A stretch of 54,936 nucleotides of DNA, from the NCBI GenBank assembly GCA_044892505.1, contig CM097883.1, forward strand, positions 34,472,001 through 34,526,936, given 5' to 3'. The position numbers and the translations under genes were made by a program. Below, one piece after another: positions 16,685 through 52,796 of the stretch. A model generated the notes under the pieces. That model saw only the letters and a list, made by a program, of their open reading frames with translations. It was not told where the DNA came from and searched no databases. This DNA comes from Schmidtea nova (taxonomy: Eukaryota). Within the stretch, counting starts at the first letter, position 1. Every line of letters begins with the position of its first letter.

Positions 16685-16702
16685 TGGGGGCTCAGCCGGG
16701 AT
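16685..16702 (+). other. Primer binding site, tRNA-Pro-like
   Basis: TGGGGGCTCAGCCGGGAT matches 16/18 to the canonical tRNA-Pro PBS TGGGGGCTCGTCCGGGAT; it begins 6 nt after the LTR end. Confidence 0.8.
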
Positions 16703-17006: not shown

Positions 17007-17468
17007 ATGGAGGAAAAACTGAAAGAAATCGAGGAATTTTTCAACACCGAGAACGATACATTTGAGACAGTCTGCGAAAAAATAACCCGAATAAGAGCAT
17101 CCGAATATGAGGAACCTACGACACAAACTGAGGAAACAACTGAGTTAATAAAAATCATAGAGAAAGTAAATAAACTCGATATAAATACGCGATATAAATG
17201 GTACAAAGCACGATTAGAGGATGCCGAGTTGAATATCAGATGCCGACATATAGAACAGCAGTTAAGCCTAACATATAACCGATGGATGTCGCAAGGGGTC
17301 GAGGCAGCAAAACAATATAAACAATGTTACATATGCGAAAACAGTGAAATCCAAATAATGTTTTTACCATGTGGACATTTTCGATTCTGTAAAAACTGTG
17401 CGAATAAGTGTGATGAGTGCCCCATGTGCAATTTCTCTGTAGCTGATAAAATTGTGGTTTATTTATAA
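17007..17468 (+). CDS. Retroelement-borne RING E3 ligase, IAP/MDM2-type C-terminal C3HC4 RING, no BIR domain, 153 aa
   Basis: CYICENSEIQIMFLPCGHFRFCKNCANKCDECPMC...KIVVYL* has the LPCGH core and hydrophobic C-terminal tail typical of IAP-type RINGs; helical N-terminus. Confidence 0.85.
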   Translation: MEEKLKEIEEFFNTENDTFETVCEKITRIRASEYEEPTTQTEETTELIKIIEKVNKLDINTRYKWYKARLEDAELNIRCRHIEQQLSLTYNRWMSQGVEAAKQYKQCYICENSEIQIMFLPCGHFRFCKNCANKCDECPMCNFSVADKIVVYL

Positions 17469-17942
17469 TAAATATTTAGAGTGTGTTAATATATTGTATC
17501 GAATGACAAAGTCAAGGGAGCAATCAACAATGTTAATTAATTTTTGAGCTACTGTCAAGTAGTCCGTTAAGCACCCATTGGCAGGTACCAGTTGATCAAC
17601 CCACTCGGGGTATATAGAAAGGGGCCAATCGCAAATGTTGGAAAGCTTTTGTGATGTGATTGATCACCACATCCCGCATTAGTAGACCAACGCGATCTTT
17701 TTGTATATTTTGGTTGGGGAGAGAAATAGGGAAAACCCTGATGAGGTAAGATGCGCGCAGAGAAAATAATAAAAATGGAATTATGACTGATCAGCGAAAG
17801 AATTAGTAATAAAACAAAGAATCGAGGAATTATAGAGAAAAATAAGAGGTGCATAATCAGCTCGCATGAAATTGAGAGAACTCAGCTGAGAAATTGTAGT
17901 CGCTAGCGAAGTTAAGAATTACGATTAACCGGTTAAGGAAAA

Positions 17943-18098
17943 GTTATCAGCGGTTTGTCCCTTGAAACAAAGGGTTATTAGAATTTGTCCCTTGAAACAA
18001 AGGGTTATCAGCGGTTTGTCCCTTGAAACAAAGGGTTATTAGAATTTGTCCCTTGAAACAAAGGGTTATCAGCGGGTTGTCCCTTGAAACAAAGGGTT
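17943..18098 (+). repeat. Leader tandem array 1: five copies of TTGTCCCTTGAAACAAAGGG, alternating 31/30-bp units
   Basis: Direct read; ABABA spacer pattern. Confidence 0.95.
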
Positions 18099-18150
18099 GA
18101 GGCCAAAGAGCCATATTGAATGACCTAGCTAGGCGTTATTGAGAGATACG

Positions 18151-18308
18151 ATTTAAGGCCAATAGAGCCATTTGAGATAATTGAGATATGATTTAAGGCC
18201 AATAGAGCCATTTGAGATAATTGAGATATGAATTTAAGGCCAATAGAGCCATTTGAGATAATTGAGATATGAGTTTGAGGCCATAAGAGCCATTTGAGAT
18301 AATTGATA
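18151..18308 (+). repeat. Leader tandem array 2: about four 40-41-bp units (ATTTAAGGCCAATAGAGCCATTTGAGATAATTGAGATATG)
   Basis: Direct read; partial copies of the AGGCCAA.GAGCCA core flank the array. Confidence 0.92.
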
Positions 18309-18351
18309 TTAATTAGAGGCCAAAGGAGCCAATAGGGATATCCGGATATAT

Positions 18352-18566
18352 AGTAACGGAGGGAATATAGGCCCAGGGTTACAATTGTTGAGTAGCAACG
18401 GAGGGAATATAGGCCCAGGGTTGCAATTATTTAAAATTAAAGGAAGATAGTAATGGAGGGAATATAAGCCCAGGGTTACAATCGTTTGAGTAGCAACGGA
18501 GGGAATATAGGCCCAGGGTTGCAAGTGATAAGAAATAACAACAGAGGGAATATAGGCCCAGAGTTG
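18352..18566 (+). repeat. Leader array 3: five copies of AACGGAGGGAATATAGGCCCAGGGTT with variable spacers
   Basis: Direct read. Confidence 0.92.
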
Positions 18567-19115
18567 TGATCGTCGACGATAATGAGAATAGTGCGCACCG
18601 ATAATAGAGAAATGCGAGTAAAGCTGATTATGCGACCTAAAATAATGCATGCAAGTAGAATTGAGAAATAAGAGCTGACCGGAAAGACCGGCAGAATTAA
18701 TAATTAGAGGCTAGCAGAGAGAAAGATAAAGAGATGGTAAAATAATAATCGAGTCAAATGACTCAGGGAATTAGAGCGTTCGAACGACAAATAAATTGGG
18801 AGACCGCGGGAAAAATAATTGATGTATTTTAATAACCGATAGATAATTGTTATGACTAAATAGATAATTGTGACTAGTATATAGATAAATTAAATAGACT
18901 TAAATAAAGGGGAATCTGGGAATGGGGAAAAATAATAGAAACCCAGTAATGAGAAGTCCCGTAAAAAGGGAATAAAAGCGCAACGATAACAATAGAGTAT
19001 CGTTGAAGTGACATTTGTATTTTAGATAAATCAATCAAACCAAACCAAGCAACCAAGGAAGAAAAGAATCGGAACACGATAAGACAGGAAAATTGAGTAT
19101 ACAAAAGTAATCCCG

Positions 19116-22100
19116 TTGAGAAAAGGAGAAAAGAGTGTCATAATAAAACCAGCAGAAAAGAATAAAGCTACCAAGAATAATAATCAGAAAGGCCTAAAAG
19201 GAAGTAAAGCAAGGCAAATAATAATACAAAAGTCGATTATCGAAAACGATAAATTATCAGTAACAAGCAACAGTTCAAGCAACAAAGAAAATCAAGCAGA
19301 ACCCGAGAGAAACCCAATAAGTGAAATAGAAGTCGACAAAACCAACAACGATTATATAGAAGAAATAGAAGACGAAGTAGAACAAGAAACAGAAAGTGAC
19401 GATACCGATAACGATAGTAAAGCATCAGATAACGAATCAGCAAAAGAAACTGAGATCGACCGAAATTCGAGTGACGAACCTAACAGTGAACTAGAAACAA
19501 GAGGAAACGAAAGTAAAATAACTACAGACAGCGGAATCGAAATGAGTGAACCAAGAGAAGAGATAAAAGACAAATTTTCCGGAGAACCGTTTAATGGAGA
19601 TGCGAGCAAACTGGAAACTTTCTTAAAAGAATTTGGCATATTCGTGGAAGTATGCAAGTGGAAACCAGAAACAACTGTAAGCAGAATTCAGCTATATTTG
19701 AAAGATAGCGCATTAGATCTATATTTGGAAGCAAAAAATGGAACTAATCCACCTACAAGTTGGTCAGCGATAAAGGACTTTTTCCAACAAACCTTTGGAA
19801 TAAACAAAGTATTGAATGAGGCATTCACGGAATTCTCAATGAGGAAACAAAAGATAAATGAATCGAATGCGGTATATGCGAGCGAATTGAAAAAGTTAGC
19901 AAAGTTGATCTTTAATCAAGACAGCCCAATAAATGAGGAGTTAATGGCAGCTATCTTTGTGGGAGGATTAAGAAGACCCGACATAAGAGCGCAAGTTGGA
20001 TGTCAAGGGTGTAAAACCATCGACCAAGCACTAGAAACAGCTAATAGATTTGAACTACACATGATAGGAAATGATGGTAGAATCTATTTAGCTATGGATA
20101 CAGCACAAAACGAACAAGAAGTGAACCTGAATAACCACATTCCAAATTCACAACAATTAAACCGACCACCACCGCAACGAAGGAATGAAGGGAATAAAGT
20201 ATCAAATTACGGAAATCAAAACAATTACAACCCCCAAGGACCAACGAAACAATGCAAAACATGTGGGAAATTGGGACATTGGCAACAAGAATGTTATCAG
20301 AACTTGAATTGTGGAAAATGTGGAGTAAAAGGGCATTCAGAGAGCAGATGTTACACAATAACCTGTTTTAATTGTGGACGGCCTGGACACCTATCAAGAA
20401 ATTGCGGACAAAGAAGCAATCAACGAGGAAACTGGCAGAATACCGGAAACCGACAAAACTATGGAAACCAACCAACTGGTGGAAATCGACAGAATTATGG
20501 AAATCAGCCAAATAATGGAAACCAACCGGAATACGGAAACCAACCAAATAGTAATAATAATAACCAAAATAAAAATACCACTAAAGAGATACATTTAATG
20601 CAAGAGGTCCAAAGATTGACGGAGCTGATAAACAATACAACCAGAGGAAATCCGCAAACAGGTCAACAACAAATCAATATGATGAGAAAAATAGAAAGCG
20701 AAAACGAACGATTGAATCGGGAAAGTCAAGCACGACATGCTCAGGAATGGGCAAGAATACAAAGAGAAGAGGAACAAAAACAGCAAGAAAGAGAACGACA
20801 ACCTCTAAGAATTAATATGATGAGAGCAACCAATCAAACAAATACCCACGAGAAAGAGACTGTACCAGAAATAAATCCAACAAACCCGAATCCAACCAAC
20901 AACGAAGGCCGAAAAGAGATAATACAAGAAGATGAAGAAGCAGAAAAAGAAACAGAAAAGGAAGTAGAAAAAGAAGGGAACCAAGAAGAGAAAAGGAAAC
21001 TCGGGAAAAGAGGAATGATGGTAATTTTGCCAAACAAGCACGTGTTTCGATTCCAATATAACATAAAAGAAGAAGTAGAAATATTGTTCAATAAAGTGAA
21101 TGAAATGGCTCCAGGAGTAACGAAACTGCCCAGAGAAGCATTCCTAAAAATAGAAGGTGCACCAGAAGTAAAATTGAAACTAACGGATACATGGGAAAAC
21201 CTGGGAGTAGTAGAGACAAAAAGAAATGTGATGGTAATCAAGGAAATAGAACCAGAAGGAATTCCATCGCCAGTGCGTCACGAAACACGAATCAGTCGAA
21301 TATTTAAAGGGAAAATGATACGAAGACGGTTGGGAGAAATAGACGAGTTAGAACGAAAAATGAGAAAGGTCGGAGTAGTAGACGACAAGAGTGAATCAAC
21401 ACAAAAAGCTATTAAAAGTGAAACAAGACCAACGGAAAATACACCAAGTGAAATCAACCAAATAAAACACATTAACATGTTGAGAGGCCAGGCAAAGAAA
21501 TTCTCAGATGACGAAGAGGATAGTGACGTCAGTAGTCTAGCCGGAGATATGCTAAACGAACCGGAAATTGAAGACAAAAAGATAGAAGTAGTAAAGACAC
21601 CAGAAACTATTCAAGTAAAAGAGGACGAGATCCAGAAATTATTAGATAACGCGCTAGAAGTAATATATAATGAGGAATTCATTGACAAGAAACACTATAG
21701 AAAATTCATGAGAGCAATATTACAAATGAACTATAAAGAGTGGTTACCAGGCCGAGAAGTAGAAACACTAAGCCAGTACGTAGGAAAATTATTAAAAGAA
21801 CCACTCCATGAATATATAATCCTAATAGAGATAAAAACATGTTTGCCAAGGATTTGGATCAAAACTCCACTCACGGAAGATATTTATCAATGGGTAGAAG
21901 ATAGATTAGGGAGTTCATATAAAAACAAATTCCTCTATTCACAGAATGGACTAGTGAAGAAAAGGACGCATTTGATAGAAACAGGCATATGGCCAGGAGA
22001 GGTGACAACACTATCGATATGCGATGATAAGAGAGAAGAGAACCTACAAGAAGTAGCAAAGGAAGCAAATATGTGTTTCGAGAAGAAGATAAAACCACGG

Positions 22101-23909
22101 TTAGAATATGAGAAAGGACGAATCTTACGAGGAAATCTAAATTCCATGATAGAACAAATCATCCCACAAATCAAAAAACATAGAAAGGAGTTAATGAGAA
22201 GCGAATACGAAAAGTTGAAACGATGTATCGAATGCATACGTGACACAAGTCACACGAGATGGTCACAGATCTCATACGGAAAAGTAATTGCAAAAATGGG
22301 AAAAGCAATGTTCAGACAAGGGAAAATAACAGATCTGAAAATTGCAGTAGAGTTACCTAATGAGGATACCAAAGAAATTGAAGTGGTAGCAGATTGTACC
22401 ATAAAAGAATTAGTAAATGTCATCAACGAGACACTATTACAAAGAGAACCAGAAGAAGAATGGGAAGATGACATAATCATGAAATACAACGAACATGTAT
22501 TATGGGATCACGATGAAAGACGGCTATATAAAATTGGTATATGGGATAATCACCAAACCATCCACGTTATCAGAATGGACGATACACCAAGAGAAACTGC
22601 TAAGGATGAGAAAAGAGAACGGGAACGACAAAAAGAAGTTGTGCATAAATTACAACAAATAGTAGACATTTATCGAAATTGGCGGATTTGGCCAGAATGG
22701 GAAGATGTATTAGAAGAACTCAATCTCAACAGACGATTACGAACACCTGTAGAAAAACAATGGAACGAACGAGGAAAATGTTGGGAACCAAAAGCAGGCG
22801 AATACGAAGAGGAATACGGAATAGGCATAGAAGACGATCACAAACCGGAAACCGGAAGAGTCTGTATGGTAACAAGAAAAGCCATGCCAGCAGATTTAGA
22901 CGGACCAGAAACGACAACCATGTGGTTGGAAAGAGAAAAACAAAAAACGGAAGAATTTGTCGAAATATTAAAAACCAATGCGCACGGCAAGAGAAAAGTA
23001 GTAAAAGGTCTCGCAGATTTTTTCGTAGTTAATGGAGAAGACATAACATGCTTGCGTAAAGTAGCAAAAGCAATCGCCGAATACAAAAGAGTTAACGAGT
23101 GGTGTCCAGAACAATTGGATCACGTGATTAAAAAATGGAGAAACCAAGAATTCTCGCAGGAATCGCCACAGAAAGTACACCTAAGAATAGTATATCCGAA
23201 CCAAGAAAAGGAAGAGTTTTGGGTAGGGATAGCGGAGAAAGTTCGAGACATTAAAAAGAAATTGAGATATGAACCACCATTCCATTTACAACACCAAGGA
23301 CGATCATTAGATAACAGCTTGGAAATTGGAATAACGCCAGCGCAATTAGATATCGCAAATACATTGACAGTGGCAGCAATAGCAGGCCAACCATTGAAAT
23401 TGAAAGAGGAAAAGAAACCAAAAGGAAGTATGAGTACGCCGAGCCCAATGAAATCGGTAATGACTCCAGGAACAAGCTCAGAACAAGCTAGAACAACACC
23501 AAGAGAGACAAGAGAAAGAACACCACCAGAACCATACGATGTAGACGAAATTTTTACAGATAGCGATGATATGTTAGAGGAGTTAATAGAGCTAACAAAA
23601 GAGAAAGATGATAATATTTTCGAAAGAATTCAAGAATTACCAACAGCAATACCGGTAACCAACACCGAAGATGAAGTCGAACAAGAAATAATCATAGAAG
23701 AAGTAAATGAAATAGCAGAAGAGGAAGCAAGGAGGGCAAATGTAGAAAACGTACAATTCACACAAGAAATGGAAAGATGGTTAGAAGAAAGAGCCAATGA
23801 ACCAAGAGACGTCACAGAAGAAACTGGACGAGAAACAAGATTAGTAGAAACGGGCACGACAATGGATAAACGACCTAGAGGTAGACCAAGATGGATCCAG
23901 CAAATGTAG
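19116..23909 (+). CDS. gag: Gag polyprotein (capsid-like region, three CCHC zinc knuckles, N/G/Q-rich repeats, long extension with ubiquitin-like modules)
   Basis: PFNGDASKLETFLKEF capsid-type start; CX2CX4HX4C three times at 20253-20405. The ORF-track start is TTG; the first in-frame ATG is at 19542 and the frame is open from 19083. Confidence 0.9.
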   Translation: MRKGEKSVIIKPAEKNKATKNNNQKGLKGSKARQIIIQKSIIENDKLSVTSNSSSNKENQAEPERNPISEIEVDKTNNDYIEEIEDEVEQETESDDTDNDSKASDNESAKETEIDRNSSDEPNSELETRGNESKITTDSGIEMSEPREEIKDKFSGEPFNGDASKLETFLKEFGIFVEVCKWKPETTVSRIQLYLKDSALDLYLEAKNGTNPPTSWSAIKDFFQQTFGINKVLNEAFTEFSMRKQKINESNAVYASELKKLAKLIFNQDSPINEELMAAIFVGGLRRPDIRAQVGCQGCKTIDQALETANRFELHMIGNDGRIYLAMDTAQNEQEVNLNNHIPNSQQLNRPPPQRRNEGNKVSNYGNQNNYNPQGPTKQCKTCGKLGHWQQECYQNLNCGKCGVKGHSESRCYTITCFNCGRPGHLSRNCGQRSNQRGNWQNTGNRQNYGNQPTGGNRQNYGNQPNNGNQPEYGNQPNSNNNNQNKNTTKEIHLMQEVQRLTELINNTTRGNPQTGQQQINMMRKIESENERLNRESQARHAQEWARIQREEEQKQQERERQPLRINMMRATNQTNTHEKETVPEINPTNPNPTNNEGRKEIIQEDEEAEKETEKEVEKEGNQEEKRKLGKRGMMVILPNKHVFRFQYNIKEEVEILFNKVNEMAPGVTKLPREAFLKIEGAPEVKLKLTDTWENLGVVETKRNVMVIKEIEPEGIPSPVRHETRISRIFKGKMIRRRLGEIDELERKMRKVGVVDDKSESTQKAIKSETRPTENTPSEINQIKHINMLRGQAKKFSDDEEDSDVSSLAGDMLNEPEIEDKKIEVVKTPETIQVKEDEIQKLLDNALEVIYNEEFIDKKHYRKFMRAILQMNYKEWLPGREVETLSQYVGKLLKEPLHEYIILIEIKTCLPRIWIKTPLTEDIYQWVEDRLGSSYKNKFLYSQNGLVKKRTHLIETGIWPGEVTTLSICDDKREENLQEVAKEANMCFEKKIKPRLEYEKGRILRGNLNSMIEQIIPQIKKHRKELMRSEYEKLKRCIECIRDTSHTRWSQISYGKVIAKMGKAMFRQGKITDLKIAVELPNEDTKEIEVVADCTIKELVNVINETLLQREPEEEWEDDIIMKYNEHVLWDHDERRLYKIGIWDNHQTIHVIRMDDTPRETAKDEKRERERQKEVVHKLQQIVDIYRNWRIWPEWEDVLEELNLNRRLRTPVEKQWNERGKCWEPKAGEYEEEYGIGIEDDHKPETGRVCMVTRKAMPADLDGPETTTMWLEREKQKTEEFVEILKTNAHGKRKVVKGLADFFVVNGEDITCLRKVAKAIAEYKRVNEWCPEQLDHVIKKWRNQEFSQESPQKVHLRIVYPNQEKEEFWVGIAEKVRDIKKKLRYEPPFHLQHQGRSLDNSLEIGITPAQLDIANTLTVAAIAGQPLKLKEEKKPKGSMSTPSPMKSVMTPGTSSEQARTTPRETRERTPPEPYDVDEIFTDSDDMLEELIELTKEKDDNIFERIQELPTAIPVTNTEDEVEQEIIIEEVNEIAEEEARRANVENVQFTQEMERWLEERANEPRDVTEETGRETRLVETGTTMDKRPRGRPRWIQQM

Positions 23910-26900: not shown

Positions 26901-29900
26901 ACACCGGTCCAGTATTAACTACAACAATCGAAATTAACGGAAGGGAAATTGAAGCGATGATTGATACAGGAGCAAATATCTCAGCAATAGATATAAAATG
27001 GATACCACAAGAACAAAGACGGGATATTGAGAGAACCAACGTTCACGTAATAGCATGCAGTAAAGAAGTAGTAGAAGTTTCCGGAAGATGGCGGGTAAAG
27101 ATAAAACATCAAAGCACGGAAATCGAAACGTACGTAGCAGTAATACCAGCACTGAGCGTACCATGCATTATAGGTACGGATCTGATGCCAGCATTATTTA
27201 AAGAAATAGTTATTGACCTCGGAACAATGAGATTAAAGGATAGGACAGGACAGATATGCGCAATAGAAGCAAAAGTAACAAGTTCGAAACAAATAATCGT
27301 ACCAGCACGGAGAGAGAAAATATGTTTCGTAAAAATAGATCCTACAATAGAAGGTGACATGATCTTTGAACCCAGTAAAAGATTTGAAAAGAGAAAGTCG
27401 TTGCCAATGGCAAGGGGATTAGTGAGTGCGAATGACAACGGAGAAATCCCGATAAATGTAGTAAATTTCGATGAGGAGGATAAAATAATTTATGAAAATG
27501 AAAGATTAGGTAAACTAACTCCAATGATAGATATCGAAATACCAATAAAAGAAGGAGTAAAAGAGGAGGAACCCACTTGGAACATTGATAGCCAACTATT
27601 AAATGAGGACCAAAAGAAACAGCTAGAAAGATTACTGATGGAATATAAAGACATATTCGCAACATCCGATTTAGATTTAGGGACATGCGACGTCACACTA
27701 CATACGATTCCACTAACAGACGAAACGCCGATTGCGTTAAGACCATACAAGTTAGCTGAAGCGCAAAAATCAGTAGCAGAAGCAGAGGTACAGAAAATGC
27801 TAGACGCAGAAGTAATTGAACCAAGCTGCTCACCGTGGCAATTCCCAGTTGTAATGGTGAAAAAGAAAGACGGAACACAACGATTTTGTATTGATTATCG
27901 GAGATTAAATGCAGTTACAAAAAGGGATACATACCCATTACCAGACATCAACGAGATGTTATTGACATTACAAGGAGCGGCATACTTTACATCATTAGAT
28001 TTGAAAAGCGGATACTGGCAAATTAAAATGAAGGAGGAAGACAAAGAGAAAACTGCTTTCACTATCGGAAGAGACTTGTACCAATTTAGGAAAATGCCAT
28101 TCGGACTAACCAATGCGCCAGCATCATTTCAAAGATGTATGAATTTCGTTACCCACGGCATAAAACAATGCATGGTTTACATTGATGACCTACTAATCTA
28201 CTCAAGCACATTTGAACAACACATCCAAGATATCAGAGATGTATTTGTGAGATTGAGACAATGGAAACTTAAGCTCAAACCATCGAAATGCGATTGGGCA
28301 AAAGAGAAAGTGACATTCTTAGGACATATTGTGTCCGCAAAAGGAAAGGAACCAGATCCCAGAAACATTGATAAAGTAAAAGAATGTCCAGTACCAAAGA
28401 CGATAACGCAGATCCAAGAATTTCTCGGATTATGCGGTTACTATAGAAAATTCATAAAGGATTACGCAGGAATTGCAAAACCAATCCAGGAGCTAGTAAA
28501 GAAAGACGTATCGTTCATATGGGGAAGCGAACAACAAACAGCCTTCGAAACATTACGAGATAAGTTAATAACTGCACCAATATTGGTTCACCCGGATTTC
28601 AAGAAGCCATTTTTACTCGCAACCGACGCAAGTGGATATGCAGCAGGAGCAGTGTTAGGACAATATGATGACGAGGGAAAAGAGCGGGTAATCGGATATT
28701 ATAGCAGAACATTCAAGAAACACGAGAAGAATTATTCAGTAACGGAAAGAGAAGCATTGGCGATAATATTAGCAATAAAACACTTTAAATATCTACTATG
28801 GGGACACATTATATGCATAACCACGGATCATCAACCACTGGTATGGCTAGGACAACATAAGGAAACATCCAGCAGGTTGATGAGATGGGCGATGCAATTA
28901 CAAGAATATTCACCAGATATAAAATTCAAATCAGGGAAAGCGAATGCCAACGCAGATTGCATGTCAAGATTAACGTTTCCAGAACTAACAGACCCAGAAG
29001 TGCAAAGAATATGCATAGTGATAGCAGAGGATTTGGATTTCAGCGAGTTGAAGAAAGATCAGCAAGAGGATAAAGAACTAAGACCCATCATAGAATTCCT
29101 AAGCTCACGAAATATGGATGTATTCAAAGACAATGCAGAGTTAAAGGAACACATGAGGAAATACCAACATCGATACACAATAGAAAAAGGATGGTTATTA
29201 ATACGAGATGGAGAGAAACGATTAATGTGTCTGCCAGGTAATAGACGAAAAGAGATAATAACTCAATACCATGACGGAAAGTTGGGAGGACACATGTCCG
29301 ATAAGAAAACATTAAATCGCATGAGACAAAAATATTATTGGCCAACAATGGACGAAGACGTAAAGGAATGGATAAAGAACTGTTTAACTTGTGCCACAAG
29401 AAAGGATAGTGGGAAGAAATGGAAAAATCCTTTAAAACCCATGCCAATACCAGCGGAACCAATGACTACCATTGCGATGGATGTAATAGGACCATTGCCA
29501 GAAAGTTTAAACGGGAATCAATATATATTGGTAATAACGGATTATTTGACTAAATTCCCTGAAGCATTTGCGATGCCGGATCAAAAAGCAAAGACCGTAG
29601 CAAGAATTTTAGTAGAGGAAATATGTTGTCGATACGGAACCCCGAAACAAATACTAACAGATCAAGGAACAAATTTTATGAGCGAAATATTAGATGAAGT
29701 AACAAATTACTTCCGGATAGCTAAATTACGAACGTCACCATATCATCCGCAAACCAATGGACAAACGGAAAGATTTAACGGCACATTGATTCGAATGTTA
29801 TCCAATTATGTAAGCAAACACCAAACAGATTGGGATGAATACGTAAAGCTATGTCTAATGGCATACAGAATGTCGATACACGCAGCAACAAAATTGAGCC

Positions 29901-32900
29901 CATTTCAATTAATGTATGGAAGGGAATGCAATATGCCAATAGATCTTGAATATCAACCACCTTTGTCTCAATATATGGAGGAAGATGATTACGTCACCAA
30001 ATTCAAAGAACGAATGCAAGAGATATGGAAGACAGCAGAACTGAACATAAAGTTTTACCAAGAAAGTTACAAGGACCTACACGATCAAAAGAAAAATGTT
30101 AAAACAAATGATCTTAAACCAGGAGATTGGGTAATGATAGAAACCCCAGAAATAATACCAGGAACCGTTAAAAAACTACAAAGACCAGGAAAAGGCCCTT
30201 ACGAAGTTATATACAAAAAGGAAAACAATGTGAAGGTAAAACTTGTTAATCGACCATTGATACGACCAATATACGTTAATACATGCAGATGTAAAAAAGT
30301 ACCAAAGACAATAACCACAGCGCCAGAAGAACGGATAATAACCAGATCCCAAACAGCCAGAATGAATATGCTCAGAGCAACCAATGAAAGTACCGAAGCA
30401 GAGAACAATCAACGAGAAAAAAGAAACAAGGAAATTGTACTAAAAGCCAGAGAAATAATGGGAAAATGGCATGTCAGAGACGATATATTAAGAGATATTC
30501 AGTCGATAATTAGTGATTACGCAAGGGGACTACCAACAAAACCAGTCATTTCAGAACTACTGGAAAAGATTCCAGAAATACTTTCACTAGAAGACATAGG
30601 AGGACAACCAGCACTACATAACGCCATAAAATGGGGAGAAGTAGAGAGAGTAAAAGAATTTCTAAAAATCGCTAAGGAAACAAACCAACACCTTGGTTTT
30701 GGGAATAGCGAACAAGAAACACCATTAATGGTAGCAACCATCTACAAATCGGATAAAGCAATAATAGACCTTTTGATAAATGCCGATTTCAACTGGACGG
30801 AACGTGATAGAGAAAACAAAACAGTCTTGAATCACGCAATATGGAGCTCAAATCAGATAATGCTCAAACAAATAATCGAGAAGGCCACTTGGGAAATAGA
30901 CGAACTGATCAAAGGTGATATAATCAAGGAGGCAATAAAAATCGGTAACTGCAAAACAATACGCAAGCTAATAAAATGGAAAAGATCCGAAAATGATACA
31001 TGGGTATTAAATATAAACGAAGTATACAGTAAAGGACAAAACGCGTTATTACAAATTCTATTAAAATTCGTTTGTGATCAGAAAACACTGTTAACGCTAT
31101 TAGATAGAGGAAACATCATAATGTCCAAAAACAAAGAGGAGTGTAAATTCGAAAGTGAAAAAGAAGCATTATTCAGGAATATTAGGGAATGGTGTACAAA
31201 ATCGCTAACCAAGACGATAACTTACAAAGATATATCCAATTTTCAAGACAAATACAAAACGGTGGAGGAGGAGTATGACAAACTAATAGACATATTAAAC
31301 CACCCCGAAAAATGCAAACAATTCCTATGTCGAAAGGAAAGAGAAAGCAAAAGGAAATTTACACCACTTTTCAGCGCAGAAGTACCATATCAAGAAAGGT
31401 TAGATGCGATACAGGACAAAGCAAAAGAACTATTACCAGAATTCGAAAATTCTAAACATACACTGGAGATACTCGGAGCAATTGTGGAAAAGGTACATGC
31501 ATACGCGGAAGGAACTTACAATGAAAACGATATGATGATCATAAAAAGAGAAATGCCAGTGACTTTCTTATTAACAAAGAATGGAGTATTGCCAATACAT
31601 AGAGCCTTACGAGCAAGAAAAGAGAGGAGGGTAGTCGAAATTGCACGGTTGATGCAAGATTGCGGAAGTGACATGAACATGAAAGATAAAAAGGGAGATA
31701 CCCTCATGATATTTGCAGCAAGAGCGAACACAAAAACCCGAGTGTTACAGGAACTGTACGAAGCAGGTGCAGGACTCATGGGAAGAACTAACAAAGACAG
31801 CTCAATACTAGACGTAGCGTTGTTAACGCACAATTGGGAAGTGATAAATTTCATAAAAACAATCACAAATCAGGAGGAAATAGAATACCTTACAAGGACA
31901 GTTAAAAAAGCTAGCGTACATTCCATGATGCATAACGCTGAACTAACTGAAGTAATACTCAATTGGATGAACCCAAACACCAATGAACCAGCATTCAGGA
32001 TCAACGAGTGCATGGAACAAGGCCAGAATTTATATATAAAGTGTGCATTAATAATAAACAAATGGCCAAAGATAATAGATATCTTCATGAGAAGAAAAGA
32101 TTTACGATTCACAAACAACCCAAAGGAAACAGAACGTACGGACAAATGGAAAGAACTAATGAAAACGTACCTTAATAATTGGATAAAAGCCAAGAAAGAG
32201 ATTCTAGATTGTAAATTAACCGATAAGGAAATACCTAAGCAGGCAGAAACACAAGAATACGAAGCAAGTATACTCACAACCATAACGTATGAAAAAATGA
32301 TAGAAGCAATTAATGTCGAGGACGACATTTTCAACGACCAAAGGGGAGGTGACAATACAGGAAACGACGACGATAGTACTCGAGAAAATCCAGAGGATCA
32401 TGAGTTATCCGATAAAGAGGACAGTGAAGAGAAAGGAAGGGACACAGAGAAAAATGATAAGAACAATGAATTTGGGAAACAAAGAAACAACAACTATAAA
32501 AATAAAAACGAAGTAAAAAGAACAGGCTACAAACAAACAATAAACCCATTCTTTAAACCAGAACTATTATTACTAACGGTAATCATGACCTTAATTAGTC
32601 CAACTCAAGGAATGATATGTGAAGAAAAAGCGACAATACAAATTGGAAACGCAAAAGGAATCGAACGAGTATGTTGGTCAAAAAAGGACAAAATATCGGG
32701 ACAAAATAGTCCAATGGATTGCAGGATCTCAGAATATGAACAAGAAATCATAGAGATCGATGACTTAGAGCTAGATACTTGGTACAGAATGTGCACCGTT
32801 CGGAAACCAAAGGATCCGAGATCACATAAGACAATTGCATGTGCAAATTACCTAACACCCAAGGTAACCATAACAGTACAGCAGTCATCCAAAGGAGACT

Positions 32901-34504
32901 ATGTCGTAGGAAAGTGTGGAAGAACAGAGACACAAGGAACAAAAAACAAGAAACCTCAGACAATAGACAGACGAACAACGCCAACTATACAAATTACCAT
33001 AGACAGGCCCGAAGTAAGAGTAACCACAAATGAAACTGAAAGAGTGACCTACCAAGCAGAATTACTATGTTTAGCACTCATATTAACAATGTTAAAACGG
33101 TTAGAAGAAGGGATAGACATTGACACAATGGCAGTAACAGAGATGAACGACACCCAAAACACCAACCCAAAGTGTTGGGCCAGAAGCAACGAAGAAATTG
33201 GCGTAAGCGAAATAAAGACGAGTCGGAAAAGGAAAACAAATAAAGTAACCAAGATATCAGAAGTAAAAGCAGACAGGACGTATGAACTATGTTTACTAGA
33301 AAAAGAAAGACACAAGAAAGGAACGACAATTTGTAAAACATTTCAACCTGGGGAAACAATAAAGTTCATACGACGAGGAAGAAGAAATAAACGCACCAAA
33401 CGGAGAACAACTATAATGTTAGAGTTAACCGGAATAGAACCGGACGTCAAAGGCGTATGCTGGAAGAAGCAGGAAAAGAAAACAAACCAGAATACACCGC
33501 CGCAATGTCGAACAAACAGAGGAACAACCACAATACAGATAGAAGGGTTAGAAAGTAATCAAACGTACGAAATATGCCTGATCAGGAAGAGCGACAAAAT
33601 AACAGTAAATGAACTGGAATGCAAAATATATAAAACACCCACCAGAACAAGAATTGGAAAGACAACGCGAAAAAGCAGAAGACAACGGAACAAAGGAAAA
33701 ACGAGGTATACCACTACTTTTAAACCTAATGGACAACAGAAAAACCAAGAAATACAAATAAAAACCGAAAAGAATACTACAGCAACTCTTATACTATGGA
33801 GAATAGACAATAAAACGTTAGAAATATGTTGGGCAGTAGTCCAGGAACAAAAAGAAAGACAGCCACGATACTGCGAAAACGTAAAAGGAAAAGAAGAAAT
33901 GAGTATCAAAAATCTGAAATTTAATAGAGAATACGAGATATGTGCGGTAGAAAAGACGGACATATTAGGAAATCAGCAGGAAAAATGCGAAACGTACTAC
34001 ACACCGGTAAACTCAACGTCCAAAGGGAAAGTGAGAAAACTCGAATTTAAAGAATTAAGTCAGACAACGAAACAAATGGACGCGGAACAAGTAGTAATAG
34101 ACCCTTACGCAAGATGGACGCCGGAAGAAGTAATTAAAGAAGTTAAAAGAAAACAACAAGAACGAGAACAACTACTAAATAAACTAAAGGGACAATACGG
34201 ACCAATGATTAACCAGAGTGAAATTACGAAGATGGACGTAAACAAACAAGTTAGAGAACTAATTGGTCTGGGAATACTAGCAGCAACTATTCCAGTAATA
34301 ACAGTATTATTAATAATATGGATATATGATGTATTCAACAAGAAACCAATAACACATTGGCCAGATATAAAGATTATGAACTACAGTATAGAATTACCGG
34401 AAGAAGTACAGAAAGAATTTCAAAGGAGGACGAAAGGCAAAGAATTTTGGAGACAAATAGAAGATGAAGAGCGATACGAAGGAAAGACAGTGATGGTGAT
34501 ATAG
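23891..34504 (+). CDS. pol: 3,537-aa polyprotein: Bcl-2-like, envelope glycoprotein, PR, RT, RNase H, IN, ankyrin repeats, FN3-like membrane protein
   Basis: DTGA protease (D at 26963), YIDD RT (28178), ATDAS RNase H (D at 28625), HHCC plus D,D(35)E integrase (D 29480, D 29660, E 29768), GPY motif (30194); the extra domains are listed separately. Confidence 0.96.
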   Translation: MDPANVVIKSREEKRRDQWDLCLKKLNKIAVTKEKETTQTYQGEEWISKMLMEILAIIDPELKKWWRINEISERAKSLHSAIAPILPELIKEKTRSNHLDWQGTTMLIKKLTEGAETDNKYLIAMAYTIYNLLTLSRGRLKPTALERHIKNTAKIIEKEIEPYIISKGGWETFTKTNQKKNQAKNMKKKFEEILGELEKEKSGTGNGKSSLNLSSIIMMMLIWMISTDGATAFEVFDCDQMALGEKYSLRGTEQCKDATPTELKTLKKRQLYHVYQEAELIRTMVRECKVYKTRFAFYCGHRHYSAIVMPGTERESVMLQGEDCEKLFKHGEVETRDRVKIRGKTGVILQQTYYVAGAITGGEGYCQGATYPIFGVAATNLVVIDTYTVELKTYEAFFDPTTGEMKTLPMCKIESNTCQTGMSTLTYQIRGKECQLQLLKEAEFDEIQGKTFQEEEEDEAARGKILQDTVRGEKKIETRTQEKQIKMRNTPTVLITSDADIGMRFVKGKTALKCGVAMLETNYPGIFVSKQEVPSAKRKVHTNDVKLHLYMNNKMDFLFHRGQASLQKVYYDLINNDCILNREILKTKLAVAITNPDSAMPLLPLREGHFGRVVGEVMYVYICKKTNAKVATMTKLQPGQCTNELEIEYKGKVRYVQPVTRIINPVSFEPNPFNCSNAYGPLYQKPDGNWVMFPSRTEVPAPREFELMQLSKGRKFKDVDVSNMGFYSAKDLEAARQNILFPARREAVLSSIVTITGGTNYQGGPNYELLLSPAHFKKATENMMKAMWGRFLIFGQMMAGILGVILIIQIIRVIITQMLACFDIYKREKKVNWKLVVGFLPFLAKTMVLHGHSKDIHRIKRLLKILAKMKGTDEEVGRKFKKIMNNEQARQQLKKERKGLWERMKGYRTQDDSSDDDDDDNEGGQVFKNQVPQYVEKNPAEMWKCYAPPPTMYQEPTPGMRQNTMQMMPMTNIYPMIPEDYRTRRCRSVDPQGDSHTIAVMSSNTGPVLTTTIEINGREIEAMIDTGANISAIDIKWIPQEQRRDIERTNVHVIACSKEVVEVSGRWRVKIKHQSTEIETYVAVIPALSVPCIIGTDLMPALFKEIVIDLGTMRLKDRTGQICAIEAKVTSSKQIIVPARREKICFVKIDPTIEGDMIFEPSKRFEKRKSLPMARGLVSANDNGEIPINVVNFDEEDKIIYENERLGKLTPMIDIEIPIKEGVKEEEPTWNIDSQLLNEDQKKQLERLLMEYKDIFATSDLDLGTCDVTLHTIPLTDETPIALRPYKLAEAQKSVAEAEVQKMLDAEVIEPSCSPWQFPVVMVKKKDGTQRFCIDYRRLNAVTKRDTYPLPDINEMLLTLQGAAYFTSLDLKSGYWQIKMKEEDKEKTAFTIGRDLYQFRKMPFGLTNAPASFQRCMNFVTHGIKQCMVYIDDLLIYSSTFEQHIQDIRDVFVRLRQWKLKLKPSKCDWAKEKVTFLGHIVSAKGKEPDPRNIDKVKECPVPKTITQIQEFLGLCGYYRKFIKDYAGIAKPIQELVKKDVSFIWGSEQQTAFETLRDKLITAPILVHPDFKKPFLLATDASGYAAGAVLGQYDDEGKERVIGYYSRTFKKHEKNYSVTEREALAIILAIKHFKYLLWGHIICITTDHQPLVWLGQHKETSSRLMRWAMQLQEYSPDIKFKSGKANANADCMSRLTFPELTDPEVQRICIVIAEDLDFSELKKDQQEDKELRPIIEFLSSRNMDVFKDNAELKEHMRKYQHRYTIEKGWLLIRDGEKRLMCLPGNRRKEIITQYHDGKLGGHMSDKKTLNRMRQKYYWPTMDEDVKEWIKNCLTCATRKDSGKKWKNPLKPMPIPAEPMTTIAMDVIGPLPESLNGNQYILVITDYLTKFPEAFAMPDQKAKTVARILVEEICCRYGTPKQILTDQGTNFMSEILDEVTNYFRIAKLRTSPYHPQTNGQTERFNGTLIRMLSNYVSKHQTDWDEYVKLCLMAYRMSIHAATKLSPFQLMYGRECNMPIDLEYQPPLSQYMEEDDYVTKFKERMQEIWKTAELNIKFYQESYKDLHDQKKNVKTNDLKPGDWVMIETPEIIPGTVKKLQRPGKGPYEVIYKKENNVKVKLVNRPLIRPIYVNTCRCKKVPKTITTAPEERIITRSQTARMNMLRATNESTEAENNQREKRNKEIVLKAREIMGKWHVRDDILRDIQSIISDYARGLPTKPVISELLEKIPEILSLEDIGGQPALHNAIKWGEVERVKEFLKIAKETNQHLGFGNSEQETPLMVATIYKSDKAIIDLLINADFNWTERDRENKTVLNHAIWSSNQIMLKQIIEKATWEIDELIKGDIIKEAIKIGNCKTIRKLIKWKRSENDTWVLNINEVYSKGQNALLQILLKFVCDQKTLLTLLDRGNIIMSKNKEECKFESEKEALFRNIREWCTKSLTKTITYKDISNFQDKYKTVEEEYDKLIDILNHPEKCKQFLCRKERESKRKFTPLFSAEVPYQERLDAIQDKAKELLPEFENSKHTLEILGAIVEKVHAYAEGTYNENDMMIIKREMPVTFLLTKNGVLPIHRALRARKERRVVEIARLMQDCGSDMNMKDKKGDTLMIFAARANTKTRVLQELYEAGAGLMGRTNKDSSILDVALLTHNWEVINFIKTITNQEEIEYLTRTVKKASVHSMMHNAELTEVILNWMNPNTNEPAFRINECMEQGQNLYIKCALIINKWPKIIDIFMRRKDLRFTNNPKETERTDKWKELMKTYLNNWIKAKKEILDCKLTDKEIPKQAETQEYEASILTTITYEKMIEAINVEDDIFNDQRGGDNTGNDDDSTRENPEDHELSDKEDSEEKGRDTEKNDKNNEFGKQRNNNYKNKNEVKRTGYKQTINPFFKPELLLLTVIMTLISPTQGMICEEKATIQIGNAKGIERVCWSKKDKISGQNSPMDCRISEYEQEIIEIDDLELDTWYRMCTVRKPKDPRSHKTIACANYLTPKVTITVQQSSKGDYVVGKCGRTETQGTKNKKPQTIDRRTTPTIQITIDRPEVRVTTNETERVTYQAELLCLALILTMLKRLEEGIDIDTMAVTEMNDTQNTNPKCWARSNEEIGVSEIKTSRKRKTNKVTKISEVKADRTYELCLLEKERHKKGTTICKTFQPGETIKFIRRGRRNKRTKRRTTIMLELTGIEPDVKGVCWKKQEKKTNQNTPPQCRTNRGTTTIQIEGLESNQTYEICLIRKSDKITVNELECKIYKTPTRTRIGKTTRKSRRQRNKGKTRYTTTFKPNGQQKNQEIQIKTEKNTTATLILWRIDNKTLEICWAVVQEQKERQPRYCENVKGKEEMSIKNLKFNREYEICAVEKTDILGNQQEKCETYYTPVNSTSKGKVRKLEFKELSQTTKQMDAEQVVIDPYARWTPEEVIKEVKRKQQEREQLLNKLKGQYGPMINQSEITKMDVNKQVRELIGLGILAATIPVITVLLIIWIYDVFNKKPITHWPDIKIMNYSIELPEEVQKEFQRRTKGKEFWRQIEDEERYEGKTVMVI
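23903..24415 (+). other. Bcl-2-like domain at the N-terminus of the polyprotein
   Basis: EIEPYIISKGGWETF aligns with Bcl-xL BH2 HLEPWIQENGGWDTF and is preceded by a hydrophobic alpha5-like helix. The BH1 NWGR motif is degenerate. Confidence 0.7.
24521..26356 (+). other. Envelope glycoprotein: internal signal peptide, Cys-rich ectodomain and TM anchor; chuvirus-glycoprotein-like
   Basis: Signal LSSIIMMMLIWMISTDGATA|FEVFDC; motifs CKVYKTRFAFYCG, GYCQG, ETNYPGIF, LYMNNKMDFL, GEVMYVYIC, CTNELEIEYKG...PVTRII recall chuvirus-type G proteins; TM at 26261-26356. Family call is from memory. Confidence 0.75.
30590..32100 (+). other. Ankyrin-repeat region (two clusters) after the integrase
   Basis: GQPALHNAIKWG, ETPLMVA, KTVLNHA, GVLPIHRA, GDTLMIFAA and SSILDVA are TPLHxA-type repeats with D/N-x-x-G hairpins. 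Confidence 0.8.
32558..34504 (+). other. Second secretory module: signal-like segment, four Cys-containing FN3-like repeats, TM helix, short tail
   Basis: ELLLLTVIMTLISPTQG|MICEE; a repeated CW..C..I..L....Y.+C....C..Y.TP pattern; TM LIGLGILAATIPVITVLLIIWIY at about 34259-34327. Confidence 0.65.
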
Positions 34505-34629
34505 GAGGCGGGATATGACTGTAAATAATAGTGTAAATAACAATGCATTACCGTAATAGTATGGGTATCGATATTATAAAAATATAAAAAGAGAAATCGA
34601 GAAAACGATTAATGTATATAATTTAGAAA

Positions 34630-34986
34630 ATGAACGAACAGGAAGAAATAGCAGAAACTACTATGGCTATGCGATGGAAAGCCCAGTGTGACATGTTAAT
34701 ACGAACAATCAACTCACTACAAAATCAGTTAATTGAGAAACAGAATTTGTTATCCGAAAGTTATAATAATAGTTTTGAACAACTCCACAGAATCGAGGAG
34801 CAACAGAGATTGATAACGCAACTTACCAGAGAGAATCAAGTGATGAGCGACATAAATCAGAGACAAGCAATAGAGATAGACCGTTTAACAATGGGAGAGA
34901 CAGAAGAAGCAGAGGATGGATGGACAAATTGGGCAATAAACAGATCAGAAAACGACCCAGAACCAGATTCAACAAACGAGCCGTAG
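34630..34986 (+). CDS. Accessory coiled-coil protein with acidic tail, 118 aa
   Basis: ATG ORF with the element's A-rich codon style, heptad pattern, and AATAAA at 34990. Confidence 0.7.
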   Translation: MNEQEEIAETTMAMRWKAQCDMLIRTINSLQNQLIEKQNLLSESYNNSFEQLHRIEEQQRLITQLTRENQVMSDINQRQAIEIDRLTMGETEEAEDGWTNWAINRSENDPEPDSTNEP

Positions 34987-35076
34987 ATAAATAAAGCGAA
35001 AAATTGTAAATATGTAAAACAAAAACAAGAAAAATCAAAAAATAGATAACAAATCAAGTGTATATATCATTGTAGA

Positions 35077-36459
35077 ATGAATACAGAAGGAAAAGCCGAA
35101 GAGCGGATAATCGAAATTTTGAGAGCCGAGAACAGGAAATGGAGTCTGAGACTCACTTGTGTAAATTGTAAAAACATAATATTGAAACCAAGACAAACCC
35201 TATGCGGATGCAGAGTATGTACCAAATGCATACACGAGTTAAGTATGAAAAGACCACCAGAATGTCCAGAATGCAAAGAAGGTCAAATAAAATTCGAAGA
35301 AACCGGACCAGATAGAGCAACTCAGAGAGAAATCATGAACACGAAAACCGAATGTATAAATCAACCATGTATATGGCAAGGACAAATACGCGATCTCGAG
35401 AACCATCTGGAGAACTGCGAAGAGAAGAGAACTGAATGTAACAAATGCCAACAAAAAATAACTATAAAGAATAAAGAGCAGCACAAAGATGAATGTAAAG
35501 AAGAGGAAAGTCTATGCGAATATTGTGGAACTCGAGAAACGAGGAGAAAGATCGAAGAAGAACACCTGAATATAAAAGAGGAGAAAGTATGTAGACAATA
35601 TGTAGGAATATGTTCAAACGAATGCGAGATAACGGTAGAAGTAAAATTACAAGAACATTGGAAAGTGTGCACGGAGAAACCAAGGGAATGTCCTTATAAC
35701 AAACAGGGATGTATGGAGAAAAGAACGCAAAAAACCATGAAACAACATCTGGAGGAAGCATTACTAAAGCATGCGGAAATGACAAACGAAGCAACAAAAG
35801 AAACCGAACAAACAATCAAAAAATTAGAAAGAGAAATAGAGTCACACAAGATAATGGTAAACCTACTGTTGGAAACCAGAGAGCAATTCGAACTAACACG
35901 AGAAAAGATGGAGGAAAAGATAAAAGCTATCGAAGAACTGGCTAAAGGAATGAAAATCCAGTACAACAAACTCACCCAGGATACCGAGGAAAAGTTACCA
36001 ATCGCACCATATGTGTGGAAAGTGACAGATTTTAGAAACAAATTAACAGAGGCCAGAAATATGACGAAAACAGCAGTAATAAGCCCACCATTTTATTTAT
36101 GGAGAAACGGAGCTAAAGTGAGATTGAAGCTATACCCAAATGGAGACGGAAGAGGACGAGGAACACATGTGTCAATATTTTTCTCGCTATGTAAAGGAGA
36201 ATACGACGACCTAGTAGAATGGCCCTTGAAAGTAGGAGTCATCATTAGAATCAGAAGTGTAACAAAACCAGTAGAAAAATTCTTTGAGACAGAGAAACAT
36301 GCGAGTACGAGCGAGAAACCAACCACAGAATGTGGATTAGCAGCGGGAGAACCAATGTTTATAACGAAAGAAAGCCTATGGGAACGATTATATGCAGACA
36401 CCCTATACATAGAAATGGAAAGGAATGAGAAAGCGGATAGAAAAGAATGGTTGACGTAA
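35077..36459 (+). CDS. TRAF: Full-length intronless TRAF homolog (RING, TRAF zinc fingers, coiled coil, MATH), 460 aa
   Basis: CVNC..PRQTLCGCRVCTKC..CPEC; zinc fingers (CINQPCIWQGQIRDLENHLENC, HWKVC..CPYNKQGC); MATH YVWKV..SPPFY..LYPNGDGRGRGTHVSIFF..GEYDDLVEWPL resembles TRAF2/3/5. Confidence 0.93.
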   Translation: MNTEGKAEERIIEILRAENRKWSLRLTCVNCKNIILKPRQTLCGCRVCTKCIHELSMKRPPECPECKEGQIKFEETGPDRATQREIMNTKTECINQPCIWQGQIRDLENHLENCEEKRTECNKCQQKITIKNKEQHKDECKEEESLCEYCGTRETRRKIEEEHLNIKEEKVCRQYVGICSNECEITVEVKLQEHWKVCTEKPRECPYNKQGCMEKRTQKTMKQHLEEALLKHAEMTNEATKETEQTIKKLEREIESHKIMVNLLLETREQFELTREKMEEKIKAIEELAKGMKIQYNKLTQDTEEKLPIAPYVWKVTDFRNKLTEARNMTKTAVISPPFYLWRNGAKVRLKLYPNGDGRGRGTHVSIFFSLCKGEYDDLVEWPLKVGVIIRIRSVTKPVEKFFETEKHASTSEKPTTECGLAAGEPMFITKESLWERLYADTLYIEMERNEKADRKEWLT

Positions 36460-52560: not shown

Positions 52561-52796
52561 GTATCATTCGAAAGGTCTTGGAGAGGTCTATACAATAGTC
52601 ATACCCTCGAATGTTTATGGTGGGTGCTCAACCTTCAAAGGGTGCAAAACCTTCAACCTTTTTCAAACCTTATAATATATATATATCATTCGAAAGGTAT
52701 CTGAAAGGTAGGTATGTTGGTCATACCCTCGAAGGTTTATGGAGGGTCTTTAACCTTCAAAGGGTGCAAAACCTTCAACCTTTTTCAAACCTTATA

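What the first reader, a model, noticed from the sequence alone, without database searches (positions are those of the whole stretch)
17007..36459. One retroelement carries an apoptosis and TNF/NF-kB-pathway toolkit
The sequence shows an IAP-type RING E3 upstream of gag, a Bcl-2-like domain, ankyrin repeats, ubiquitin-like modules and a complete TRAF. These families control cell death and TNFR/NF-kB signalling, and similar sets are used by large DNA viruses (vBcl-2, viral IAPs, vankyrins). The inference is that the element keeps its host cell alive or dampens defence, which would matter in stem-cell-rich hosts. Some such domains may already be noted for Burro elements.
Basis: partly seen in the sequence, partly recalled or inferred. 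Interest (0 to 1): 0.86.

Follow-up and report, generated by a model that had tools for sequence, protein, structure and literature searches.

The report
Giant flatworm retroelement carrying signalling genes
A 28-kb virus-like jumping gene, likely of a planarian flatworm, carries captured cell-signalling genes that selection has kept intact and that likely help it by altering stress and cell-death signalling; the gene list and this idea were already published for its family, but a copying-defective sister element that keeps these genes was not found in print.

Summary
The domains are real and lie in one young 28.3-kb env-bearing Ty3/gypsy element with identical LTRs and the Burro layout. TRAF and ankyrin are solid. 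The RING is IAP-type but has no BIR. Ubiquitin-like modules show only at profile level. The Bcl-2-like domain is a degenerate homologue: BH2 kept, BH1 lost, fold test inconclusive. All are under purifying selection (dN/dS 0.07-0.28 against a sister subfamily). The cargo list and the apoptosis/ubiquitin idea were published for Burro (PMC6431247). 'NF-kB' and 'stem cells' are poorly supported: planarians lack clear NF-kB/IkB/IKK, the ankyrins are not IkB-like, and BURRO1 is silenced in neoblasts. Not found in my searches: (1) the toolkit splits into an old core (Ubl-Bcl2-Env...FN3-TM), shared with 14-kb families, and an accessory set (RING, ankyrin, TRAF); (2) a predicted FN3 membrane protein; (3) a splice acceptor before each accessory ORF; (4) a high-copy sister family without RT, integrase, Env or Bcl-2 that keeps TRAF, ankyrin and a full IAP under selection. 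Expression is untested.

The parts
13433..16678 (+). 5' LTR, 3,246 bp, holds two ORFs (14774-15250, 158 aa; 15567-16151, 194 aa) without family hits
   Evidence: ORFs; no Pfam; no Atlas hit for the first
16685..16702 (+). Primer-binding-site-like motif, shared with families B, H and the RT-less family I; likeness to a tRNA-Pro site is recalled, not tested
17007..17468 (+). BIR-less IAP-type RING ORF (153 aa); aligns over nearly its whole length with one member of a family of BIR-less RING genes outside the element
   Evidence: dN/dS 0.11
19542..23909 (+). Gag part of the polyprotein: capsid-like N-terminus, three CCHC knuckles, up to four ubiquitin-like modules, AT-hook-like motif. A frameshift near 23.9 kb separates it from the rest in this copy only
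20997..21260 (+). Ubiquitin-like module 1 (weak, by pattern)
   Evidence: dN/dS 0.28
21804..22043 (+). Ubiquitin-like module 2 (weak, by pattern)
   Evidence: dN/dS 0.14
22329..22580 (+). Ubiquitin-like module 3
   Evidence: in profile A5; dN/dS 0.10
23163..23402 (+). Ubiquitin-like module 4; no C-terminal di-glycine; kept in the RT-less family
   Evidence: dN/dS 0.11
23918..24445 (+). Degenerate Bcl-2-like domain: BH2 kept, BH1 motif lost
   Evidence: dN/dS 0.07
24503..24586 (+). Hydrophobic segment, inferred to be both Bcl-2 tail anchor and Env signal peptide (below the 1.6 hydropathy cut-off in the window copy, above it in family G)
24587..26368 (+). Env: Monjiviricetes-type fusion glycoprotein with TM
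   Evidence: PF24664 E 3e-68; TM
26921..29806 (+). Protease, RT, RNase H, integrase
30614..31990 (+). Two ankyrin blocks (about 30614-31090 and 31508-31990); generic, not IkB-like
   Evidence: dN/dS 0.09 and 0.08
32552..34504 (+). Second predicted membrane protein: signal peptide, FN3-like repeats (32603-32854, 33389-33640, 33758-34009 and a fourth by eye between the first two), TM 34253-34330, short tail
   Evidence: dN/dS 0.21
34630..34986 (+). 118-aa coiled-coil-like accessory ORF, conserved in families B, H, I
   Evidence: dN/dS 0.12
35077..36459 (+). Complete TRAF (RING, zinc fingers, coiled coil, MATH), separate ORF
   Evidence: dN/dS 0.13
36575..37636 (+). 353-aa coiled-coil-like accessory ORF, conserved in families B, H, I
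   Evidence: dN/dS 0.09
37718..38290 (+). 190-aa accessory ORF with one strong TM
   Evidence: dN/dS 0.24
38494..41739 (+). 3' LTR, identical to the 5' LTR; TTAA target duplication at 13429-13432 and 41740-41743

Best explanation
This is a recently inserted copy of a Burro-type, envelope-bearing Ty3/gypsy element whose extra genes are under purifying selection and likely act as viral-style accessory proteins that alter ubiquitin-linked stress and cell-death signalling in the cell that expresses the element. Two modules. (a) An old core in one polyprotein: Gag-Ubl-Bcl2-like-[signal]-Env-TM-PR-RT-RH-IN-[signal]-FN3-TM. Signal peptidase would leave the Bcl-2-like domain tail-anchored in the secretory membrane beside Env and release a surface FN3 protein (inferred). 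(b) An accessory set: ankyrins inside the polyprotein, and RING, TRAF and coiled-coil ORFs, each likely made from its own spliced mRNA. The captured TRAF and RING would act as decoy adaptor and ubiquitin ligase on the host's expanded TRAF network, which in planarians is linked to TBK1/TAK1-MAPK responses and cell survival rather than to a recognisable NF-kB (inferred). The gain is a producer cell that lives longer or responds less.
For: Shown: domains; dN/dS 0.07-0.28 for every cargo domain between subfamilies A and B; same layout in families B and H; Bcl-2-like domain directly before the Env signal in families A, B, H, G, J and in public proteins P0013, P0014, P0016, P0020, P0023; element TRAFs form one clade (99/95) among this genome's TRAFs; YAG within 7 nt of 25 of 30 accessory starts against 58 of 437 control ATGs; an RT-less family keeps TRAF, ankyrin, RING and a full BIR-RING IAP with dN/dS 0.10-0.17. 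Literature: planarian TRAFs are expanded (PMC6109357), TBK1-induced (PMC13563047) and needed for tissue survival (PMC7586133), passages only.
Against: No expression or binding data. Direction of effect is open: a BIR-less RING could remove host IAPs as well as mimic them (recalled). Bcl-2 fold test inconclusive and BH1 lost. TRAF RING has Cys for the usual His and the MATH groove differs from human TRAF3/5. Selection shows function for the element, not the target. NG86 ignores transition bias, dS is partly saturated, and rests on one pair per comparison.
Confidence: 0.58

Rival explanations
1. The core cargo (Ubl, Bcl-2-like, FN3-TM), and perhaps the ankyrins, are structural or processing parts of the particle (membrane anchor for Gag beside Env, budding aid, attachment protein) and have no signalling role.
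For: Ubl, Bcl-2-like and FN3-TM are fixed in the minimal 13-14 kb families G/J (RT 46-54% identical) that lack RING, ankyrin and TRAF. The RT-less family loses Bcl-2 together with Env but keeps the signalling genes. BH1 is degenerate.
Against: Does not explain a complete TRAF and an IAP-type RING as separate ORFs under selection, nor their retention in a family without Env or RT. Can be true for the core while the best explanation holds for the accessory set.
Confidence: 0.22
2. One reading: a TNFR/NF-kB-blocking kit, with vankyrin-like ankyrins, acting in stem cells.
For: TRAF and IAP RING are TNFR-pathway families in vertebrates (recalled); seven divergent RHD genes exist in S. mediterranea (PMC13563047).
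Against: NF-kB, IkB, IKK not detected in planarians (PMC4484250 Table 1); no clear NF-kB homologue; 0 of 51 ankyrin PDB hits is an IkB; BURRO1 is intestine-enriched and silenced in neoblasts.
Confidence: 0.1
3. The cargo is kept because it helps the host animal (domestication in progress).
For: A family that cannot copy itself keeps intact signalling ORFs in at least 145 scored copies.
Against: Copies decay after insertion: 14 private stops against 0 shared, private dN/dS 0.33 against 0.16 shared; LTRs are 99.9-100% identical and copies dispersed, so selection acts during copying.
Confidence: 0.06
4. Neutral passengers picked up by readthrough and amplified with a young element.
For: The window copy is very young, so open frames alone prove nothing.
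Against: dN/dS far below 1 at dS 0.3-2 and conserved order over families with 36-78% TRAF identity.
Confidence: 0.03

Closest known systems
   Same: Size near 30 kb, long LTRs, one gag-env-pol polyprotein of about 5,000 aa, three CCHC knuckles, Ubl then BCL2 then Env then PR, ankyrins, MATH/TRAF, accessory ORFs; the apoptosis/ubiquitination idea is stated there.
   Different: Here TRAF is a complete separate ORF downstream of the polyprotein (in Burro1 MATH is inside ORF1; in D. tigrina in an upstream ORF); no BIR in this family; FN3-TM end, splice acceptors, small core families and RT-less family are not in that section.
Complex retroviruses with spliced accessory genes (HIV, foamy-like fish elements); recalled, the latter also in PMC6431247
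   Same: Several short ORFs around gag-pol-env, each with a predicted 3' splice site.
   Different: Env is in frame between Gag and PR; accessory genes are recognisable captured host signalling genes; planarians also have SL trans-splicing (PMC12582326), which could resolve the 3' cluster as an operon.
Helper-dependent retroviruses carrying captured host signalling genes (acutely transforming type); recalled
   Same: Family I has lost RT, RNase H, integrase and Env, shares LTR end and primer site with the autonomous families, and keeps captured genes.
   Different: Endogenous, at least 145 copies, several cargo genes; no effect on cells has been shown.
Anti-apoptotic and immune genes of large DNA viruses (vBcl-2, baculovirus IAP, vankyrins, poxvirus Bcl-2-fold proteins); recalled
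   Same: Same protein families on one mobile genome.
   Different: RING lacks BIR; ankyrins not IkB-like; Bcl-2 domain is part of a polyprotein and lacks BH1; analogy of function only.

Membership tests
Burro elements | Giant Ty3/gypsy element near 30 kb with long LTRs | tested here: met
   28,307 bp, 3,246-bp LTRs, PR-RT-RH-IN order
Burro elements | Single gag-env-pol ORF of about 4,900-5,100 aa | tested here: met
   One frame in 6 of 6 full-length relatives examined, 4,987 codons where unbroken; the window copy is frameshifted
Burro elements | Ubl, BCL2-like, Env in frame before the protease; ankyrins; MATH/TRAF | tested here: met
Burro elements | BIR domain | tested here: not met
   No BIR in 9 element ORFs of the window; present in sister family I
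Burro elements | Sequence placement with Burro1-4 | not testable with these tools
   Reference sequences not available in any call
Bcl-2 family | Profile homology | tested here: met
   Indirect: sister G/J domains pass the Pfam cut-off; window family matches them at E 6e-6; joint profile E 2e-6 to Bcl-xL. Window copy alone has no Pfam hit
Bcl-2 family | BH1 (NWGR-type) motif of the BH3 groove | tested here: not met
   Aligned columns are degenerate in families A, B, H; BH2 is invariant in 7 of 7 rows
Bcl-2 family | Bcl-2 helical fold | tested here: inconclusive
   pLDDT 64; Foldseek Bcl-xL prob 0.92 but E 0.15, TM 0.3-0.4; VIA BAK Z 5.6 (rmsd 4.3, 120 aligned) below unrelated helical hits at Z 8.1
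Bcl-2 family | BH3 binding, anti-apoptotic activity | not testable with these tools
   bench test
IAP | BIR domain | tested here: not met
IAP | C-terminal IAP-type RING | tested here: met
   XIAP/cIAP RING best hits, E 2e-10; CGRRF1 and MYLIP RINGs follow at E 2e-7 and 5e-6
TRAF | RING, TRAF zinc fingers, coiled coil, MATH in order | tested here: met
TRAF | Canonical receptor-peptide groove and C3HC4 RING | tested here: inconclusive
   His ligand is Cys in 5 of 5 element TRAFs and in the one host RING extracted; groove residues differ from TRAF3/5; their roles are recalled
IkB / vankyrin | Ankyrin stack closest to IkB | tested here: not met
   0 of 51 PDB hits is an IkB; best are ankyrin-1/2 and designed repeats
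IkB / vankyrin | NF-kB target in the host | tested here: inconclusive
   RHD search of G000 found nothing, not even NFAT, and no control rang
Ubiquitin-like domain | Beta-grasp profile | tested here: met
   Best E 3e-5, list dominated by ubiquitin-like chains, for modules 3 and 4 with sister rows; 3 of 13 members hit PF11976 weakly
Ubiquitin-like domain | C-terminal di-glycine for conjugation | tested here: not met
   Absent at the ends of the aligned modules; integral domains
Fibronectin type III | FN3 beta-sandwich | tested here: met
   One repeat modelled, pLDDT 83; rows of both searches are FN3-type domains; top Z 8.4, rmsd 2.7 over 74; Foldseek prob 1.0 but E 6e-3

The most novel reading that the evidence does not exclude
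Burro-type elements form a helper-satellite system: autonomous proviruses supply RT, integrase and Env, while a high-copy satellite that encodes only captured signalling genes (IAP, TRAF, RING, ankyrin, protease, secreted proteins), expressed as a spliced or SL-trans-spliced gene cluster, spreads because it keeps its host cells alive. That would be cell-level selection on a retroelement in an animal that renews itself from dividing cells, an invertebrate parallel to oncogene-carrying defective retroviruses.
Probability: 0.27. Interest if true: 0.82.

Novelty: new variant of a known kind. Interest (0 to 1): 0.5.

Why it matters
The headline claim is known, but it was an untested remark. This gives a selection test of the cargo (none found in my searches), separates an old Env-linked core from a mobile signalling set, and points to a cargo-only family whose maintained IAP and TRAF make the question testable by RNA-seq, RNAi and simple biochemistry. 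It also warns that planarian counts of TRAF, IAP, RING and Bcl-2 genes are inflated by element copies: most of the 150 scored BIR matches and about 90 of the 150 MATH matches share one ORF length each and are dispersed.

Tried and rejected
Expression: no RNA holder listed; the four runs laid are contigs that cover element and flank and look like DNA, with no splice joints of use; no evidence either way. RHD and TNF searches of G000 were blank but no control rang; not evidence of absence. Bcl-2 fold searches inconclusive. ESM Atlas gave no usable hit for the Bcl-2 domain or LTR ORF1. Homologue search with the TRAF gave 12 distant unnamed proteins, 22-30% identical over long matches. Programmed gag-pol frameshift: rejected, relatives hold one frame. 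Vankyrin reading: rejected by best hits. 'IAP': rejected for the window RING, no BIR. Poly(A) signals after accessory stops: present after only 5 of 8 window ORFs in AT-rich DNA, no control, not used. Grohme 2018 could not be read. Earlier scan findings: none. No complex was predicted: no specific partner could be named. Part coordinates inside the polyprotein come from residue numbers and are approximate.
Full report
1. The element. Window 13433-41739 (28,307 bp) is one LTR element with identical 3,246-bp LTRs, TG..CA ends and a TTAA target duplication, so it inserted very recently. A search of the own genome with its TRAF returned 92 matches of 92 scored (5,463 first-look candidates), 78-100% identical. 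The host is inferred to be a planarian from the match to the published Burro layout; the species was not determined. The window copy shows two long ORFs (19542-23909, 23891-34504). Of 12 relatives fetched, 6 are full length and all 6 hold Gag through RT in one frame, 4,987 codons where unbroken; one more is degraded and five are truncated or internally deleted (part's output was cut, one search covers the frames). The break is a lesion of this copy.

2. Domains. Pfam confirms zinc knuckles, a Monjiviricetes-type fusion glycoprotein (E 3e-68), PR, RT, RNase H, integrase, ankyrins (E 4e-12), RING (E 2e-11) and MATH (E 2e-21), and finds no BIR, ubiquitin or Bcl-2 in the window. The RING is closest to XIAP/cIAP RINGs; it aligns nearly full length with one and over the C-terminal part with five others of six BIR-less RING genes outside the element (23-36% identity). 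The TRAF is complete. Ubiquitin-like modules 3 and 4 with sister rows give E 3e-5 and a list of ubiquitin-like chains; modules 1 and 2 are by pattern only. The ankyrins hit generic repeats, no IkB among 51. For Bcl-2, the window family alone matches only BH2. A Pfam search of the genome found the domain over the cut-off in smaller elements at the same position before Env; the window family matches these at E 6e-6, probability 85%, host Bcl-2 exons only weakly (probability 13%), and the joint profile hits Bcl-xL at E 2e-6. The model (pLDDT 64) has a plausible all-helical pattern but the fold searches do not single out Bcl-2. BH1 is degenerate.

3. Selection. Window against subfamily B (80% nucleotide identity; NG86, one pair, stops skipped): RING ORF 0.11, Ubl1-4 0.28/0.14/0.10/0.11, Bcl-2 0.07 (0.04-0.12), ankyrins 0.09 and 0.08, FN3 region 0.21, TRAF 0.13 (RING 0.25, MATH 0.13), RT 0.01, Env 0.08; the acidic linker is 0.38. 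Against family H dS is near saturation, with the same picture. Transition bias is not modelled, so the neutral value lies somewhat under 1. The 'evolves neutrally' refutation is not met.

4. Family context. Families B and H share the whole layout. Families G and J (13-14 kb, RT 54% and 46% identical) have Gag-Ubl-Bcl2-Env-pol-FN3-TM but no RING, ankyrin or TRAF hit (TM shown for G). Five unnamed public proteins also have the Bcl-2-like domain directly before an Env-like segment (13 hits in all, which also include stand-alone Bcl-2 proteins and one ankyrin false match). Family I (22-27 kb, LTRs 99.9-100% identical) has no RT, RNase H, integrase, Env or Bcl-2 between its LTRs in 2 of 2 whole elements; Ubl, protease and ankyrin are contiguous in 94 of 94 scored matches (a query from this family favours this form) and in 16 of 20 copies picked by their BIR (the other four are truncated; one of the 16 keeps a Gag remnant). 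It keeps RING, TRAF (36% identical), both coiled-coil ORFs and adds a BIR-RING IAP, seen in 145 of 145 scored matches (1,431 candidates). It shares LTR start and primer site with A, B and H. Between two copies dN/dS is 0.10 for TRAF, 0.10 ankyrin, 0.17 IAP, 0.07 coiled coil; over 19-22 copies shared variants give 0.16 with 0 stops, private ones 0.33 with 14 stops (p 8e-9). An autonomous partner carrying the same cargo was not excluded. So Bcl-2 travels with Env, and TRAF, RING and ankyrin travel together: two modules, not one kit.

5. Origin. In a MATH tree of 38 distinct rows (46 before identical rows were dropped; host rows are only the 30 best Pfam hits; P0012 left out), the five element TRAFs form one clade (99/95) within a group holding all 22 host rows and one outside row. 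The best full-length host match is 32% identical and has an uninterrupted coding frame. No accessory or Gag protein of the element hits those 30 host loci; three have a weak polyprotein hit. This fits a single old capture; the root is by midpoint and the donor is not resolved.

6. Expression signals. A YAG ends within 7 nt of 25 of 30 accessory start codons in four families (7 of 7 in the window) against 58 of 437 AT-rich control ATGs. The 7-nt limit was set after seeing the sequences and the families are related. The 3' ORFs are 81-125 nt apart. Either alternative cis-splicing from an LTR exon or SL trans-splicing (known in S. mediterranea; PMC12582326, passages) would fit. No RNA data were available.

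7. What is known. PMC6431247 (section 7 read whole) lists MATH_TRAF_C, BIR, ankyrin, BCL2-like, Ubi2/SUMO-like and in-frame Env for Burro and says the apoptosis and ubiquitination domains suggest meddling with host systems. PMC4484250 (passages, Table 1) found no NF-kB, IkB or IKK in two planarians; PMC13563047 (passages) finds seven divergent RHD genes, no clear NF-kB, and TRAF induction through TBK1. PMC8532177 (passages): BURRO1 is intestine-enriched on de-repression and neoblasts are doubly protected. PMC6109357, PMC7586133, PMC7958881, PMC11410931: passages only.

8. Verdict. Observation largely right; interpretation half right and already published. The best reading is accessory proteins acting on ubiquitin-linked stress and death signalling (0.58), with a structural role of the Env-linked core as main rival (0.22). 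New variant of a known kind; interest 0.5, carried by the selection test and the cargo-only family.

Noticed in passing
L125-L132, L137-L156 (G000, e.g. C1:253.26-253.29 Mb): RT-less high-copy LTR family keeping RING, Ubl-protease-ankyrin-FN3, TRAF, BIR-RING IAP, coiled-coil ORFs and two ORFs with signal-like N-termini and a TM-like stretch, under purifying selection.
   Followed up: partly
L057-L074, L133-L135: 13-14 kb families with the core Gag-Ubl-Bcl2-Env-pol-FN3 polyprotein (about 3,030 aa) and a second ORF (876 aa in one copy) without Pfam hit.
   Followed up: partly
window 14774-15250 and 15567-16151 (also 39835-40311, 40628-41212): Two ORFs inside the LTR; only 29-32% identical to subfamily B while internal ORFs are 66-84%, so LTRs change fast or are swapped. 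No family hit.
   Followed up: partly
window 43842-44168: BIR-less IAP-type RING gene outside the element (open frame 173 aa), one exact copy with 40-50% paralogues nearby; a further high-copy repeat carries a related RING, often as inverted pairs 7-10 kb apart, i.e. likely another mobile element with RING cargo.
   Followed up: partly
window 5951-6895 and 6888-7142, minus strand: Host-type genes Gemin7 and DcpS in tandem, ORFs overlapping by 8 nt; possible two-gene operon.
   Followed up: no
window 19083-19541: The Gag frame is open for 153 codons upstream of the first ATG, and similarly in relatives; the real start may lie upstream or be spliced.
   Followed up: no
window 17943-18583: Tandem repeat arrays (31, 41, 43-45 nt units) in the leader between RING and gag.
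   Followed up: no
G000 C2:405-455 Mb (L075-L104): Dense cluster of host TRAF/MATH genes at one chromosome end, several with RING to MATH in one open frame.
   Followed up: partly
window 11136-11984 and 48502-49299; 52500-54936: An 850-bp repeat in inverted orientation (80% identical), and 120-nt and 29-nt satellite arrays.
   Followed up: no
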